A stretch of 63,716 nt of DNA, counting the filler, from Kipferlia bialata (lineage: Eukaryota), in the NCBI GenBank assembly GCA_003568945.1. It is 7 parts of 7 records of this genome, joined end to end, with 100 filler letters (N's around TTAATTAATTAA, not from the genome) between each part and the next. Parts side by side here need not be neighbours in the genome. Positions count along the whole stretch, not along the records: positions 22,164 to 33,130 come from BDIP01001321.1; 6 more parts are not named here. One strand, 5' to 3'. Below are positions 16,488 through 60,823 of this stretch, one piece after another. The translations under genes and the position numbers were made by a program. Position 1 is the first letter of the stretch; each line of letters starts with the position of its first letter. A model generated the notes under the pieces. That model was not told where the DNA came from. It saw only the letters and a program-made list of their open reading frames with translations, and made no database searches.

Positions 16488-17037
16488 ACTATACCTATAA
16501 GGGATAATGATTTGTACTACATATACTTGATGAGGATCTGTCAAACACCATCGACAGACACGCAAGTATATATGTATGCATGTATATAGTTAGTTCATAT
16601 ACTATAGTAATATATGTGTATACTTTGTATACATATGTTCATGTATATATACTTTAGAAGTATTATAGGTCATCTTGTCCAACACCATAGACAGACACGC
16701 AGGTATACAAGTGTATATGGATATACTATATAGACATATGCTGTGGTAATGTAATAGATCATCCTGTTCAACACCATTGCTGCCTTCATCTCTGCCAAGC
16801 CTTTAGCCATGTTTTTGTATATACATGTAAATGTGTATATCTAGTACATAGTCCTTACATCCAGATAGGCATGACACTGGCACCTCCATCTCTGCCAAGT
16901 CCAATGTATCTGTCTATATGCATATATATATATGTATGTGTGTGTGTGCTTGTGTGTGCTTGTGTTTTGCATGTGTGATTCTGACCCCCAGACCGGCATG
17001 AGACTGGCACCTTCATCTCCGCCAACCCATACTCTGC

Positions 17038-18814: not shown

Positions 18815-21025
18815 GCCCTAGCCGCAGCTGGCACCCAGAAGATCACCTTTGTAGGGGGAGAGCCCACCCTGGTGCCATGGTGAGTGGACATGTATATATA
18901 TGTATATAGATGTATACTGGTATAGAGTGATACATAGTGATATCTCACTCCCTATCTGTCTAGTATATCTCTACCTAGCCCACCCTGCCATTCTTTCCCA
19001 TGCCTCTCTCTGTTGCATGATACCTTCACAGTCTTTGGCCATTGCCGTCTCTCTCTCTCCAAATATCTGTCCCTCCTTCTCGGCACGGAAAGTCAAGGCC
19101 CCTTTCTCTCTCTCCCCCCGCCCTATATCTATACTGTCTCACCCCCAGCCTCCCCTCCCTCGTCCGTCGTGCCAAGTCCCTGGGTCTAACTACCATGGTA
19201 GTGACCAACGGGACTAGGGTGACAGAGGAGTATCTGGACTCATTCGAGGTATGGTATAGTGTATATACATATAGACATAGTTGTATATACCCTCACTCCA
19301 GGGCTGTCTGGATTGGGTGGGCCTCAGCATAGAGAGTGGCAGAGAGACAGTGAACGCAGAGCTCGGGAGGTACAGTGTATAACTATCTGTATATACATTA
19401 GTATATCAATATATATCTATTCGCATATGGGGAAGCACTGCCCCTCCCCCATCATTATCATCTTCTTATCTCTCTCACCCCAGGGGCACCGGACTCCACG
19501 TGGCACAGACAGAGGTATGATTCCATAGATACAGCGTATAGCACAGCGTATATGGTACATACAGAGGATGAGATGCATATGGTTATAGCTGCAGTATTCA
19601 CCTATGCATCCCCCGCTTTAGATATCTCTCTCCCACCCCCAGGCCATTGTCCCCCTCCTGCGGTCCAGACGCATTGGCATCAAGCTGAACACTGTTGTCA
19701 CATCACTGAACTGGGACGAGGACATGACCCCCCTGCTGCAGAGGATAGGGGCAGATAGGTGGAAGGTATGGATAGGGTATATAGTGTATATATGCATGGT
19801 GTGTAGTGTATATAGTGTATAGTATATGGACATGACCCCCCTGCTGCAGAGGATAGGCGCAGATAGGTGGAAGGTATGGGATGTGTATATATGCATTGTG
19901 TATATAGTGTATATGGGGGATTAGTCTCCTCTCTGCCTCTCTTCCTCTGTATTTCTATGTACATTTGTATGTATCTCACCCATCAGGTATTCAAGATGCT
20001 CCACTTCTCTGGCTCTCTCTCTCTCTGTCTCTCTCCCTCTTTGGAACACACACTCTCTCTTCTACTGTACATGTACACACGTCTAAATCCATTAGGTGTT
20101 CAAGATGCTCCACATCTCTGGCTATCTCTCTCTCCTTCATTGATGCACTCTCTCTTCTACTGTACATGTATGCGTATACGTATATCCAACCCATAGGTGT
20201 TCAAGATGCTCCACATTTCTGGTGAGAACGATGCTGCATCCGACCTATTGGTGTCAGACGAACAGTTCCAACACTATCTGCAGACACACGCTGACTGTAA
20301 CCCAGGTATACTACTAACCTATCTCCCACACATGCCTAATACACTTCGAGACGAGCCAGAGTGTACTATGTCTATATATCCTTCCATATGTCTCACCCGT
20401 AGTCAAAGAGGACAATGACGACATGGAGACAAGCTATGTCATGGTGGATCCCCAGGTATATGTGAACAGTGTATGATATAGACTGTACTGTTACTTACTA
20501 CTCTTACAATAATTCAAAGGACTATGTCATGGTGGATCCTCAGGTATCCATGTATGGTTAATCCATGACACCATTCGTCATCCCTCAGTGCAATAATATA
20601 TGATTACTGTACTCTCCTCCTAATGCGATATGTAGCTGTCTCACCCTCTAGGGCCAGTTCTTCCACAACCAGGGTAGGATGCACCACCACGGCAGAAGGT
20701 GAAAGACACCCAACTACCATTCCTGTATTTTGCTCCTGTATTTTGCAAAATTAACACATGTGCTAGTGCCTCACCCCAGGATCCTAGACGTGGGTGTGGA
20801 GGAGGCATTTGCAGACACAAGGTAGGATGCCTTCTCTCTCCCCCTCTATTTCTCCCCCCTCTCTCTCTCCCCACCCTACACCCCTAATTTCCAGCTTTGA
20901 CCTGGCCAAACTCTCTCTCTCTCCCTACACCCCTAATCCCCAGCTTTGACCTGGCCAAGCTCAAGGGCCGGAAGGGTCTGTATGAGTGGAGGAGGGGTGG
21001 GAGAGTCAGGGTGGACGGGGTGTGA
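18815..21025 (+). CDS. RSAD2: Viperin (RSAD2)-family radical SAM antiviral enzyme; the N-terminal exon(s) with CxxxCxxC are not present in this assembly
   Basis: Spliced protein includes ALAAAGTQKITFVGGEPTLVPW|LPSLVRRAKSLGLTTMVVTNG..|GCLDWVGLSIES..|GIKLNTVVTSLNWDEDM..RWK|VFKMLHISGEND..|KEDNDDMETSYVMVDPQ|GQFF..|ILDVGVEEAF..|FDLAKLKGRKGLYEW. All downstream viperin signature blocks appear in order. Confidence 0.9.
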
Positions 21026-22887: not shown

Positions 22888-23298
22888 ATACGCGCAGGGC
22901 TAGCTCCCAGGTGTGCACTTGGGGGGATAGAGGTACACTCTCACCCTATGCAGATCGCTACCCGTTGCGATGTGGTTTTGCGGCAGAGAGAGCAACCACG
23001 TCGTTGTTGGAAGAGACAAAAACACGTTTTGAGCGTTTCACTATGAAGGGTTTATTACACCTTCTTGGCCTCCTGGGAGTATGTACACTCTGACGTCGAG
23101 ACCCCTTTAGCACTATCTATTTTACTCTCTTTCTCTATTCCCCTGTATCACTCTAATCCTGTGAGTCTCTGTGGTCAGTACTACAGGAGTATCTTGCTAG
23201 ACTCGGCACCCATCTAGAGCGCGGTTTAGCCCTGTGATGCTCTGTTAGTCACTCTCTCTCTCTCTCTCTCTAGTCCTATATATATTCCCTCTCTCTCT

Positions 23299-25108
23299 CT
23301 AGCCCTGTGAGGCCCTGTTAGTGACATCGACCACCCTCCACCCCTCACTGGGCATGCCCTCTATCAGCAGGGCACGGCCCTCCCCGTTGCGCACACACAT
23401 GCACACCTCAGGTAAGATAGAGTAGGAAGACAGATAGTGTATATAGTAAATATATATAGGGAATATAGAAATATACATAGCCTCGCCATTGCACACACAC
23501 ATGCACACTTGGGGTCAGAGAGAGATACTACGACAGATGGAAATATAGATATCCTACACGATATTGAGGGAAATATGATACATGACCGGCTATGAAACAC
23601 TGAAACACCTGGGCTGCTGGCTTTGACCCCCCACCCACTGTGGTACATATATAGTACACATATAGTGTATAGAATTTCTATCGTAGTGTGTATAGTAGTA
23701 CTACTGTAATATTATCCCACCTGTGCTGCTGGCTTGGACGATCCACCCACTATATCACACATGTGTATATATAGTATATATATAGTATATATATACTATA
23801 TATATACTATAGCATAGTACTTGTATTGTGGAGTGTATTGTATACATACATATATATATATTATACTATCATACCTGTGCTGCTGGCTTTGACCCCCCAC
23901 CCACTGACTTATATATGTAACACGTAGAGTGTATAGTATTTCGATTAGGGAGTGTATATATTGGGAACAATACCTGGGCTGCTGGCTTAGACCCCCCACC
24001 CACTGAGGTCTGGGGCACAGAGGGGGTGCCACCGGTGGAGGCATCGCCCCTGGGGTGTGAGATATGTATACCATTGATTCAATATCAATAATCAATACTA
24101 GAGTGTATGTGCACTCGGCAGAGGCATCGCCCAATGGGTGAAATGGAATACAATTGGTATATACACTGTATATAATATCTACACATATATACCTTCCATG
24201 TGTCCTTGACAGTATGACGTATGACCCCCTGACTGATGGCACTATGACACTGGCAATATACATGTATATATACATATATATACTATCCTATACCTTCCAT
24301 GCGTCCTGGACAGTATCACGTATGACCCCCTGACCGATGGCACTATGACACTGGCACTGTCACAGTCGGGGAAGGCCTCGGAGAGGGCCTGTCTGACAAT
24401 AAGGGTGTAGAGAGAGAGAGAGAGAGAGAATTTTTTTTCAAAATATCACAGTCGGGGAATGCATGTCTGACAATAAGGGTGTATGGAGAGAGAGAAATAC
24501 TGGTACTGACATAGTATATACACAGGATTATAGTATATGTATACCCGAAAACACTATGATCACCCACCTAGCGTCGAGTGGTGACATCTCCGACAGACAG
24601 AGCCAGTGAATATAGGAGTATATATATATATAGTATAGTATATATACATACATACATGTATATATATATATAGCATAACACATTGGATAGTACTGCATAT
24701 CATATATATTCCTAGCGTCCAGTGTTGACATCTCCGACAGGGCAGGGCCAGTCTCACTCTATAGTCTCACTAGTATAGTATTATACCATATAAATATAGC
24801 ACATATATATAATAGCACTATAGTATAGTACACATATATATTTACCCACCTTGCGTCCAGTGTCGACATCTCTGATAGGGCAGGGCCAGTCTCACTCTCA
24901 GTGTGGTTGTCAGAGTCTCCATCCCTGCCACTGGCCCTGTTGTTAGGGAATAGAAGACACTATATATATACATACATAACAGACATCTATATATATACTA
25001 CATAGCATATATATATACGGCTGAGCTATAGAGAGAGTGTGGTTGTCGGAGTCTCCATCTCTGCCGCTGGCCCTGGGGGGTAAGATATACACATGTGTTA
25101 TCGAATAC

Positions 25109-25141
<33 letters not shown>

Positions 25142-25608
25142 AGGAGAGAGAGAAAGTCTCCACCTCTACCACTGGCCCAAGGTGGGTAAGACTATCTAAG
25201 TATAATAATAATAATATGTATATATATACATATATATATACATAGAGAGAGAGAGAGAGAGAGTCTCCATCCCTGCCAGAGGCCCTAACGGTAAGGCATA
25301 CTATATGTATGTAGTATAACCTGTACACTATTTACATATGGTATATACACCCACCTTATGTAGTGCCTACCCACACTTGGGAGTGCTGGCATCTTGGCAT
25401 CACTATACATACAAGTACATATATAGATACACTACATACTATATATACATGTATATACATGTATATATATATATGTATATATACCTGATGTAGTGCCTAC
25501 CCACACTGGGCAGTGCTGGCATCTTGGCATCACAGGACGGGATGGACAGGCCGGTCTGGGGTGAGGGTATGTATACATGTATGAGAAGGTATATATATCA
25601 CTATATGC

Positions 25609-25639
<31 letters not shown>

Positions 25640-26614
25640 GACGGGATGGACAGGCCGGTCTCGTATAAGGGTAAAGGTATATATATATATGTATATAACA
25701 ATATATATAACAATATATCAATATACTACACTATATATATGGTTACGGGATGGACAGACCGGTCGGGAGTGAGAGCTGAATAGGGAAAACACTTATATAC
25801 TATATGGATAGCAGTTCTAGGAATAGAAAACAAATCTCACATATAAACATATACACACACATACCTGAGCCGATATGTTCTCGAAGTACCAGGTGTCCAT
25901 GTCGGAGGTGTCCTGGAGGTTAGAGATACGGTATATTTATATATACATGATACATATATATGCCTGTATACACACAAATAGAGAAGGTGTCCATGTCAGA
26001 GGGATCCTGGGGTCAAAGACACTGTATACAAGACATACAATGAGTCACAATGATTAATACAACGTCCTGAGAAGAACAGGCAAGAGCGTATGTCGAGAGA
26101 AAATATCCCTATCCCCATACCTGGTAGAGCAGGCAGATGGCGCCACTGACTGACACATAGCCTGAAGTGAGAATACATATATATGTGTGAATATCAACTC
26201 TATTTCGAGCCAACTCAGAGTGGCATTGGACTCTGTAAGAAAACCTCAGCAATATGTATATATCTCATAGTAAGCTGTAGATAATACATGGTATACACTA
26301 TACATGTTATTCACATCCTGGTACCTACGCAGAGTGGGGCCAGGGGGTATGGGGGAGTGAACACATGGGGAGGGGACAGGGAGAGGGGGGCCTGAGGGTA
26401 AGACAAGAATATATATATATATATTCATGCAGATTTGTATATATCCAGAGACAGAAATATATATATTGGGAGGAGACAGGGAGATACATATATATCTCTC
26501 TATATACACATATATATATACACCTTAGCCTTGTCCGTGAGCTCTGTGACTGACACTGTCCTATATCCAAACCCAGACATGGAAAGACGCACAATCAGGC
26601 CTAGAAATTAGAGT

Positions 26615-26660
<46 letters not shown>

Positions 26661-27104
26661 CCAGACATGGACAGACGCACAATGAGGCCTATTATGAGTA
26701 CATATATACTCATTGATATAGAGATAGTGGGAGAGAGAGAGAGAGAGAGAGACTGTATCCAAATCCAGACATGGACAGACGCACAATGAGACCTGGGATG
26801 AGTATATATATACTCATTGACATTGAGATATATAACATGGGGAGAGAGAGAGAGAGAGAGAGAGAAACCAGACATGAACAGACGCACAATGAGACCTGGG
26901 AGTAAGGGTTATGAAAGTGGGATGTCTTGCTCGTAATTTGATCTCTCCTTCTCTGGATAGATACTCCATATTTCACATTCGATCCCTTACCCTGCGGTGT
27001 TGTCATGAATATGTGGAGTGCCTTGCTGGTCTTGTACACACTCACCCTGCCGTTGCAGGAGAGGAGGCCGGACTCCCTGGGGGGTTAGAGGTGTATATAC
27101 TATT

Positions 27105-27147
<43 letters not shown>

Positions 27148-27433
27148 TATGTTATACATATATGTGATAGTATTTAATTCACATGTCTCTCTCAACTCAT
27201 GTAAAGTATATATATATATATATACATCAACTGTCTGTATACCTAGATGACACTGTGTTGGACAGCACCCTGTGACCCCATGAGAAGAAGGAGCGCTTGG
27301 TCAGCCTGGGGGTAAGTATATCCTGCGCAAAGCATAGTTACATAGACAAATAATATAACTATACACTCATGTGTACCTATGGACAAGACCCCCGTTGTCC
27401 ACAAACAGCATGTTGGGCTGTGCTGCAAACACA

Positions 27434-27484
<51 letters not shown>

Positions 27485-58730: not shown

Positions 58731-59869
58731 TTTCTTTCCCCCCCCCCCGCCCCCCCCCCCCCCCCTCCACATCCCCTCCCTCTTCTTACATCAGGCTGCC
58801 CTCACCCTTAACTTCCCCTCACTCTGTATACATACTCACCTGCATCGTACTACCAACAATATTCTATTGGAGACCAGAAATGCATATACTAGTATACGAG
58901 TATACATATCTGTAAATGTATATACTAGTATACGAGTATACATTGTATACATATCTACTAGGATGAAGAGAGACAGAGAGAGAGGGTGCCAGACGTACAA
59001 GGGTGAGTATCTCTCTCTATAAATGAATATCCCCATACTGTGCTTGCATCTCATCCCGATCAGTCCTCCTCCCTCCTTCTCTCTCATATTAGTCTATGAT
59101 TGTATTGTAGTATCATACATATATATAGTATGTGAGTCATTTACACTACCCTACCCCATTTGTTCTTACAAGCCAGTTCCTTACCATTAATTTCCACGTC
59201 TATTCATAGTATGACGATGGAGGGGGCAGATCAACCCGCCAGGGTGAGGCTAAATGAGAAAATAGTTATTAATATACACATATGTAGGAGAGAGAGTGAG
59301 AGAGGGAGAGATAACCTGGGGGAGTCCATGATACCAACGCATTCCTCCCTCTCTATATAGAATCTCTCATACTCAGATACTCATAGGCCAGAGTGCCAGC
59401 CTTCACATGTGTGTGTATATATACCAGAGAGCGTCAAGAAGCTCTCCCTATAATTATGCAACCAGAATAGATATGCAGGCGCATTACAGGTCAAAAACAG
59501 ATTAGTGTCAGCTTCAATTGCCATTTCGGGCATACCTTTTCGGCAATATGGTGGAATTGACCATAGAGATGATCATAACTGAGACATACCTACTACATGA
59601 GTACTCTACTAGTTTGTACTCACAGCACATACCTCTGGTATGGGGGAAGTTCACCCTCTTTCTCTAGGAATACCTTGACCTATATATGTTAATGTATATA
59701 CACTGTGCATATTTTACACATACCACAGATCTGAACACATTTTACTGTCTGGAGCGCTATGGTTTGTGCATATGTAGATATGACGCTAGTGACTACAGTC
59801 TAGTCAATGGTGTCCGCAGGGGGGAATGCCACCTCTGCGATGTATGTACAAACACTGAGTTTCCGAATC

Positions 59870-60823
59870 TTAGGCATCATCACAAGGGGGGAATACAACC
59901 TCTGCCATGTATGTTGAGTCTTCATCAACAGTTAATGACGTCCTGCCCACCCCCTCCACCACAAAGATACTGTCTGGCCCAAGTAAACATGCAAGATAAC
60001 CCAGACACGCATGATGACGGTTATCATAACCATCGGCGTGAGACCCTCTGTTGCCATTACCCCACCTCTCCCACTCCAGTGATGCAAGGGAAAGACAGTG
60101 TGCATGTAACTGCTCTGGACGGTCACGTCTCACCTCAGTAGCAACGAGAACCAAAAGGTGCCTGTCAAAGGCTATAACAGTGGACCTATCTGTGTTCTGT
60201 CCAATGGCAAATGGCAGTGCAACAAGAGTATTGAACCCATCCTTGGGTGTGTAGGTGTCGATGGTCTTGGCAGTTGCGTTCATCAGATACACCCTTTCAT
60301 TGGTGGCACTCACTGTGCTGTACATACAGTCTGGTGACTCCACCTCCATCCAGGTTGAAGTGGCTATATCAAGCGCCACTATAGCTGTGTTGACACTCCC
60401 CCTTCTGGTGCACAAGGCATATACAGCGCCATTGATAGTGAAACATGCAGATACCATACAGGGAGCAGGTGCGTTGTGCAGTGATATCTCAGACCAGACA
60501 CGCGTATCCAAGGAGAGAGACCAGACATAGGTCAGAGTGTACTGGTAGCCATACCTCCTGTTTGGAATGGGCATACTAGGGAAGGCAAGTACACACCCCT
60601 CACTCTCTACACACTTCCAGCGTGACCCTAGGGGATCAGGATAGGGTAGCTCTTCCTCTCTGAATGATCCATCACTCAGTCTTGTCGCCAGTCTGCAGCA
60701 ATTGTCACTAAAGGGCACGTTGCTGCCCAGATAGAGTAACTGGCCGTTCTTTGTAGGTACCAGGGCGTCTTGCTGGTTCAAGTACAGACTGGTGTCGAGC
60801 TTAGTCCACTCTATGCCACCCAT
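59870..60823 (-). CDS. Intronless kelch-like beta-propeller protein (317 aa)
   Basis: Uninterrupted ORF with kelch-like strands (VWSLSLDTRVWSEI, VALDIATSTWMEV, HCLSLASLEWERWG). Confidence 0.7.
   Translation of the reverse strand: MGGIEWTKLDTSLYLNQQDALVPTKNGQLLYLGSNVPFSDNCCRLATRLSDGSFREEELPYPDPLGSRWKCVESEGCVLAFPSMPIPNRRYGYQYTLTYVWSLSLDTRVWSEISLHNAPAPCMVSACFTINGAVYALCTRRGSVNTAIVALDIATSTWMEVESPDCMYSTVSATNERVYLMNATAKTIDTYTPKDGFNTLVALPFAIGQNTDRSTVIAFDRHLLVLVATEVRRDRPEQLHAHCLSLASLEWERWGNGNRGSHADGYDNRHHACLGYLACLLGPDSIFVVEGVGRTSLTVDEDSTYMAEVVFPPCDDA

What the first reader, a model, noticed from the sequence alone, without database searches (positions are those of the whole stretch)
23226..23325. 3'-UTR echo with four differences, all synonymous including the stop codon
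Seen (minus strand): the gene end GTC ACT AAC AGG GCC TCA CAG GGC TAG versus the echo ~70 bp downstream GTG ACT AAC AGA GCA TCA CAG GGC TAA. No splice site is involved, so alternative splicing cannot explain the conservation. This points to a DNA-level origin from a second functional version of the gene.
Basis: partly seen in the sequence, partly recalled or inferred. Interest (0 to 1): 0.8.

Follow-up and report, generated by a model that had tools for sequence, protein, structure and literature searches.

The report
Genome stores other alleles beside exons
In the protist Kipferlia bialata, about half of the exons examined have short copies of their ends sitting roughly 100 bases away in introns or after the stop codon, differing mostly by silent changes; these are likely pieces of other working alleles pasted in during DNA repair, so one genome would hold a sample of its population's hidden diversity.

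Summary
Observation confirmed: the 27-nt end of Kipferlia bialata KIPB_005583 (23325-23299, minus strand) recurs 73 bp downstream (23252-23226) with four silent differences, TAG to TAA included, and no splice site could use it. Alone this is modest evidence (P 0.004-0.025), but it is one of a class. 81 of 148 modelled exons have such echoes. In 135 junction-anchored echoes, 0-fold sites differ at 4.0% and 4-fold sites at 22.7% (ratio 0.15); a simulated dead copy gives 0.46-0.53. There are no new stops in 1,359 codons. Echo-versus-echo gives 0.185, splice dinucleotides are mostly kept while the intron flanks are nearly unalignable, and a second gene shows TGA to TAA. So exon and echo diverged as working sequences. 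No second gene copy was found in the protein collection, so the source is likely another allele, copied from a homologous chromosome and end-joined (inferred; this species has Dmc1 and Pol theta but no Rad51A or NHEJ). 26 of 135 echoes lost a splice/stop signal or carry an indel, which argues against pure assembly error. Reads could not be examined. No description was found in the papers searched.

The parts
23299..23406 (-). Last exon of KIPB_005583 (35 codons + TAG); the echoed end is 23325-23299
23226..23252 (-). Focal 3'-UTR echo of the last 9 codons, 4 silent differences including TAG>TAA
23253..23298 (-). 46-nt filler of (AG)n and TA repeats with no usable acceptor; holds a mini-echo of the stop region at 23278-23260 (17 of 19 nt)
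23481..23508 (-). Acceptor-side echo of the same last exon (2 silent, 1 missense; acceptor changed)
23609..29511 (-). Span holding the other 23 junction-anchored echoes of KIPB_005583 (gene total 25: 59 silent, 14 missense codons; 0-fold/4-fold ratio 0.087)
40811..41084 (-). Second stop-to-stop swap: gene end TGA (41051-41049) with three downstream echoes all ending TAA
40197..40407 (+). Gene end TAG (40210-40212) with short GA-bounded echoes, 3 of 4 keeping TAG and identical; likely simple slippage
11225..11815 (+). Exon end plus four donor echoes whose silent variants break the four-gamete test (3 incompatible site pairs)
30872..31260 (-). Exon with three acceptor echoes carrying two-step silent codon changes (CGT/AGG, CGT/AGA, TCC/AGC)
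59800..59914 (-). End of a kelch-repeat ORF with a downstream echo of its last codons (TYMAEVVFPP vs TYIAEVAFPP); not in the counted set

Best explanation
The echo is a tandem copy of the gene's last nine codons, one of a genome-wide class of junction-anchored partial exon copies, and it was likely copied from a different working allele on a homologous chromosome during break repair. Shown: tandem position, one splice site or stop per copy, strong silent bias between all copies, a normal-length intron on the junction side. Inferred steps: (1) a break falls in a TA/GA-rich intron or UTR; (2) one end invades the homolog at the next exon and copies through the homolog's intron and across the junction, stopping in mid-exon; (3) re-annealing fails because the alleles differ (about 23% at 4-fold sites, unalignable introns), and Pol theta-type end joining fuses the copy to the other end; (4) selection keeps only products that leave the resident exon whole and create no acceptor-then-donor pseudo-exon; (5) the copy then decays slowly, is deleted, or is refreshed by later conversion from other alleles.
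For: 0-fold 105/2623 vs 4-fold 164/724, ratio 0.153, p=2e-17 against 0.5; one echo per exon side 0.166, p=4e-10. Simulated dead copy 0.46-0.53 with 12-13 new stops; two alleles plus short decay 0.16 with 2.4 stops; observed 0 stops. Echo-echo 48/1129 vs 69/300, ratio 0.185, the same distance as exon-echo. Missense changes are conservative (BLOSUM -0.05 vs -0.51, p=0.006). GT kept in 63/69 and AG in 48/58, with near-normal site scores, while flanks fall to near-unrelated identity, even in most of 19 exon-identical echoes. Intron from echo GT to true AG median 100 nt and from true GT to echo AG 111 nt, against 112 for echo-free introns. Donor echoes precede acceptor echoes in 17 of 18 shared introns. 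Four-gamete violation in 1 of 2 testable arrays. No paralog found. K. bialata has PolQ, four Dmc1 models and Spo11 and lacks Rad51A; metamonads lack NHEJ (PMC8516963).
Against: No reads and no second isolate were examined, so neither the alleles nor a diploid or sexual stage are shown. The model needs synonymous diversity near 0.25, which is extreme. Fillers under 38 nt are rare (2 of 127), which uniform break positions would not give. In C. elegans comparable duplications did not use the homolog (PMC13031629). Some echoes are identical and GA-bounded (40244-40407), as simple slippage gives; 23 of 135 are identical. Two genes on the first scaffold have no echo in 21 exons. Junction microhomology was not formally tested. 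Against the 0.5 null, 4 of the 8 genes tested singly reached only p=0.05-0.08.
Confidence: 0.6

Rival explanations
1. Echoes are old duplicates whose exon part is repeatedly overwritten by out-of-register gene conversion from working alleles on the homolog; the birth event need not have used the homolog.
For: Exon-identical echoes mostly have unrelated intron flanks (3 of 19 above the null 95th percentile). Mosaic silent variants occur within an array.
Against: Echo acceptors keep high scores out to -18 with sequences different from the resident acceptor (6.6 vs 7.6), which conversion confined to the exon would not maintain. It still needs highly diverged alleles.
Confidence: 0.15
2. Echoes are same-chromosome duplicates that often collapse by deletion between repeats, so the echo becomes the exon and is under indirect purifying selection.
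For: Direct repeats about 100 bp apart are substrates for single-strand annealing (established knowledge). 0-fold differences rise from 2.4% to 6.0% over the first four 9-nt bins from the junction in the untrimmed data.
Against: After trimming distal ends there is no gradient (35/921 vs 32/924, p=0.71). Reaching about 0.27 silent divergence while selection still acts would need implausibly high N x mu (my calculation, not a call).
Confidence: 0.08
3. The short-read assembler stitched several haplotypes of a heterozygous or mixed culture in tandem.
For: The copies look like living alleles. The assembly is SPAdes on Illumina reads and the methods read state neither clonality nor ploidy (PMC5874029). 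Three echoes sit next to N gaps. Unit spacing (median 102) resembles a read length.
Against: 135 echoes are away from gaps; none shares 55 nt exactly with its exon and no distal flank has a simple repeat of 55 nt (default k up to 55 is recalled). 26 of 135 lost a splice/stop signal or have an indel, and 10 of 11 gaps shift the frame. Arrays hold up to 5 versions. One eukaryote coverage peak of 130-150x is reported. Spacing scales with echo length (slope 0.98).
Confidence: 0.08
4. Echoes are used in mRNA by unusual or recursive splicing and are under direct selection.
For: Splice dinucleotides are kept, and filler lengths have a floor near the minimum intron size.
Against: Each echo carries only one site. 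At the focal echo no acceptor scores above -5.1. The transcript-guided annotation omits all echoes of this gene. Some echoes are frameshifted.
Confidence: 0.05
5. The donor is a diverged paralog or second subgenome in the same cell.
For: It would give the same silent bias.
Against: P0002's cluster has 1 member on 1 contig; no other hit at 30-248 or 249-795 aa. Up to five versions per site would need many copies. Longer proteins and unannotated DNA were not searched.
Confidence: 0.04

Closest known systems
Tandem duplications from aborted SDSA/BIR finished by polymerase theta end joining (C. elegans tnsl-1; PMC13031629, passages read)
   Same: Head-to-tail copy made by templated synthesis and then end joining; K. 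bialata has PolQ.
   Different: There the homolog did not contribute and both copies were of one haplotype. Here the copies differ like alleles, are about 100 bp (the worm duplications are kilobases, recalled), and occur at about half of exons in a wild genome.
Tandem exon duplication / mutually exclusive exons (recalled)
   Same: Adjacent exon-like copies with low dN/dS.
   Different: Echoes are partial (median 41% of the exon), carry one splice site or a stop, and have no splicing route into mRNA.
Intron gain by tandem genomic duplication (search listing only: PMC3296678, PMC3629103; model recalled)
   Same: Short tandem duplication at exon/intron scale.
   Different: No new intron is made; the copy lies inside an existing intron or UTR, and the copies are not identical at birth.
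Gene conversion between a gene and a silent donor, e.g. pseudogene cassettes in antigenic variation (recalled)
   Same: Non-expressed copies that look constrained and form mosaics.
   Different: Here they are 15-67 nt, adjacent in cis, and found in ordinary genes.

Membership tests
TMEJ-finished tandem duplication (SDSA/BIR abort) | Head-to-tail copy with a novel junction | tested here: met
TMEJ-finished tandem duplication (SDSA/BIR abort) | Both copies from one haplotype (homolog not used) | tested here: not met
   4-fold sites differ at 22.7% with 0-fold at 4.0%; contrast PMC13031629
TMEJ-finished tandem duplication (SDSA/BIR abort) | Microhomology or templated insertion at the junction | tested here: inconclusive
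   89 of 135 distal flanks are GA/CT repeats or AT-rich; no formal microhomology test
TMEJ-finished tandem duplication (SDSA/BIR abort) | Dependence on polymerase theta | not testable with these tools
   gene present (g1038.t1); no genetics
Mutually exclusive / tandem duplicated exons | Whole exon with both splice sites | tested here: not met
   echo/exon length median 0.41, 90th percentile 0.63; focal echo has no acceptor
Mutually exclusive / tandem duplicated exons | Both copies appear in mRNA | not testable with these tools
   no reads; annotation omits echoes
Intron gain by tandem genomic duplication | Duplicated exonic segment is itself spliced out as a new intron | tested here: not met
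   echoes lie inside existing introns or UTRs; the junction-side intron is of normal length
Haplotype-mixing assembly artefact | Join at an N gap or through a repeat at least as long as k | tested here: not met
   0 of 135 with 55 nt exact match or simple repeat; 56 of 135 share 21 nt or more; focal 13 nt
Haplotype-mixing assembly artefact | Tandem arrangement absent from raw reads | not testable with these tools
   no reads examined

The most novel reading that the evidence does not exclude
Kipferlia, which lacks Rad51A and NHEJ, routinely repairs breaks from a highly diverged homolog with Dmc1 and leaves allele fragments beside about half of its exons. One genome is then a readable, recombining sample of a hyperdiverse sexual population (silent diversity near 0.25, introns unalignable between alleles), and the echoes form a cis reservoir that can return old alleles to the coding sequence.
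Probability: 0.3. Interest if true: 0.9.

Novelty: new variant of a known kind. Interest (0 to 1): 0.76.

Why it matters
If real, a single assembly gives population-genetic data (diversity, constraint per site, recombination) for a free-living relative of Giardia in which I know of no observed sex (recalled). It would make cryptic sex and homolog-templated repair testable in a lineage that uses Dmc1 without Rad51A. It would also explain part of the genome's intron bulk (echo-bearing introns median 253 nt vs 112 nt), and it shows how a spliceosome ignores strong decoy sites at about half of its introns, as exon definition would predict. The echoes can also mislead gene prediction and read mapping in this genome.

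Tried and rejected
No whole genome is held, so all counts are for this window. Raw reads were not examined, which leaves artefact and expression open. A metagenome scan with P0002 gave 39 pattern matches and no relative. Protein searches found no second copy (proteins longer than 795 aa not searched). Pfam found no family for P0002, so the gene's function stays unassigned; the weak hits of its last exon were not pursued. A first automatic gene finder over-called exons and took echoes in as mini-exons; I replaced it with curated models. Alternative splicing at the focal echo was rejected. The dead-copy model was rejected. Even spread of 4-fold differences (dispersion 1.06) separates the models only weakly (0.93 fixed-age, 1.43 mixed-age dead copy). 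The proximal-distal gradient vanished on trimming. The script stopped before the last gene's row, so per-gene ratios exist for 8 of 10 models. Earlier scan findings: none returned. Paper searches listed nothing describing this pattern; subscription journals are largely outside the library.

Full report
Setting. The window is a chain of scaffolds of about 11 kb joined by spacers. Its first long ORF matches KIPB_005579 of Kipferlia bialata on a 10,986-bp contig, the length of the first scaffold. The focal exon is the C-terminus of KIPB_005583 (454 aa, GIQ84140.1, 10,967-bp contig). The published draft is a SPAdes assembly of Illumina paired reads with one eukaryote coverage peak of 130-150x, and genes were predicted by AUGUSTUS with transcript hints (PMC5874029: passages, the methods section and the overview section read; the main text has no hit for 'duplicat', 'ploid' or 'heterozyg'; supplements not looked at).

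Observation. The last nine codons (23325-23299, minus) recur at 23252-23226 with four silent differences, including TAG to TAA. The 46-nt filler is (AG)n/TA and holds a mini-echo of the stop region. No AG there resembles an acceptor (best -5.1, true 5th percentile 2.9). For this echo alone, P(all silent) is 0.004 under random change and 0.025 if a dead copy diverges from a constrained exon (0.015 and 0.062 without the boundary site). The right null is a nonsynonymous/synonymous ratio near 0.5, not 1, because the working copy still gains silent changes.

Class. I curated 10 spliced models with 148 exons and open frames; the focal model agrees with the annotated protein. Each exon was aligned to its own flanking introns or UTR at a score reached by 0.15% of 680 control alignments. 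This gave 158 echoes at 81 of 148 exons, with mismatches at codon positions 1/2/3 of 74/1635, 55/1648 and 270/1641. I dropped 20 not anchored at a junction and 3 beside N gaps, leaving 135 (58 acceptor, 69 donor, 8 stop) at 73 exons. 0-fold sites differ at 105/2623 and 4-fold at 164/724; the corrected ratio is 0.153 (p=2e-17 against 0.5), 0.143 with ends trimmed, and 0.166 with one echo per exon side (p=4e-10). All 8 genes with a computed ratio lie at 0.06-0.24, but 4 of them miss p<0.05 singly. There are no new stops in 1,359 codons (4 expected from the missense count, p=0.017), and missense changes are conservative (p=0.006). Simulation through the same aligner gave 0.46-0.53 and 12-13 stops for dead copies, and 0.16 and 2.4 stops for two alleles plus brief decay.

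Stop codons. Of 5 complete gene ends printed, 3 have scored echoes, one has a 16-bp minisatellite that keeps TAG, and one has none. 7 of 8 stop echoes keep a stop. The focal end swaps TAG/TAA, and the gene ending at 41049 swaps TGA/TAA in all three echoes; the exception runs into a GA repeat. A kelch-repeat ORF also has an end echo.

Anatomy. Echoes are 15-67 nt (median 32), spaced at a median of 102 nt. GT is kept in 63/69 and AG in 48/58, a few 'losses' being one-base shifts or one probable false hit. Site scores are near normal, yet ungapped flank identity falls to about 0.3-0.45 against 0.3 for unrelated introns, also in most exon-identical echoes. On the junction side each echo carries a normal-length intron (medians 100 and 111 vs 112); on the other side is a filler of median 72 nt, independent of echo length. 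Donor echoes precede acceptor echoes in 17 of 18 introns that have both. Echoes differ from each other as much, and as silently, as from the exon (48/1129 vs 69/300), and 1 of 2 testable arrays breaks the four-gamete rule. Eight codon pairs are two-step silent changes. 26 of 135 lost a signal or have an indel, so some have decayed as dead DNA. Echo-bearing introns are richer in dinucleotide repeats (p=0.0009), and two genes on the first scaffold have no echo in 21 exons.

Mechanism. Shown: exon and echoes diverged mostly under coding and splicing constraint. No paralog was found, so the likely source is another allele. Inferred: a break in a repeat-rich intron or UTR, one-ended copying from the homolog across the junction, failed re-annealing, then end joining. 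Selection would leave only partial copies that do not disturb the exon, and exon definition would explain why lone decoy sites are ignored. The toolkit fits. Fornicates lack Rad51A and have Dmc1, and metamonads lack NHEJ (PMC8516963, passages and section 8 read); its supplement lists PolQ, four Dmc1 models and Spo11 for K. bialata (one supplementary file was unreadable). Dmc1 is proposed to stabilise mismatched joints (PMC6719624, abstract only). The copy-then-end-join route is described in C. elegans, where the homolog did not contribute (PMC13031629, passages). Unexplained: the floor of about 40 nt on filler length (2 of 127 below 38) and the echo-free genes.

Rivals. Ongoing conversion from homolog alleles (0.15), role swap by collapse (0.08), assembly artefact (0.08), hidden splicing (0.05), paralog donor (0.04). 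Against artefact: none of 135 echoes shares 55 nt exactly with its exon, though 56 share 21 or more, and living alleles would not carry the frameshifts and lost sites. Reads were not examined, so artefact is not excluded.

Literature. Searches on Kipferlia with intron, duplication/exon and polymorphism/sex, and on partial exon duplication, intron gain and hyperdiverse alleles (listings and abstract starts only) showed no description of this pattern. PMC6679479 (passages) covers only spliceosomal proteins of this species. Gene labels used in my scripts (SMARCAL1-like, viperin-like, nucleoporin-like, DUF1963-like, phosphodiesterase-like) are recalled from motifs and come from no call; only the kelch label is from Pfam (below its curated cut-off).

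Verdict. A real feature of the assembled sequence, far beyond chance as a class, and most likely captured allele fragments. New variant of a known kind; interest 0.76.

Noticed in passing
window 34195-35816 (+): Eight whole exons repeat in tandem and stay in frame (KEPSDAD..GFPPASK) in an FG-rich, nucleoporin-like gene (label recalled), with many silent differences; one has a GC donor at 35817. This may be the same process when the whole-exon product is tolerated.
   Followed up: partly
window 44174-44030 (-): Two versions of the first exon of the gene ending at 41049: the upstream one has an in-frame TGA where the downstream one has TCA. It is either a dead start-side echo or a selenocysteine codon.
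   Followed up: partly
window 1-10986: Both genes on this scaffold lack echoes (0 of 21 exons), and the minus-strand gene has mostly short introns of 47-77 nt; echo density is patchy between genes.
   Followed up: partly
window 16760-16801 (+): Echo fragments of two consecutive exons lie fused a few bases apart inside an intron, as after a deletion between echoes.
   Followed up: no
window 54405-54505 (+): A 16-bp minisatellite starts at the gene's last codons and repeats the TAG stop in each unit.
   Followed up: no
window 18815-21025 (+): A 10-exon gene resembling viperin-family radical SAM proteins (recalled from motifs, not tested).
   Followed up: no
window 12903-12947, 29610-29590, 52814-52911: Echoes or exon parts directly beside N gaps; those within 15 bp of N (3) were left out of the counts and could be scaffolding duplicates.
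   Followed up: partly
window 2425-7365 (+): A 1,646-codon open frame (KIPB_005579) with weak Ig-like and invasin-domain Pfam hits below cut-off and no other homolog of similar length.
   Followed up: partly
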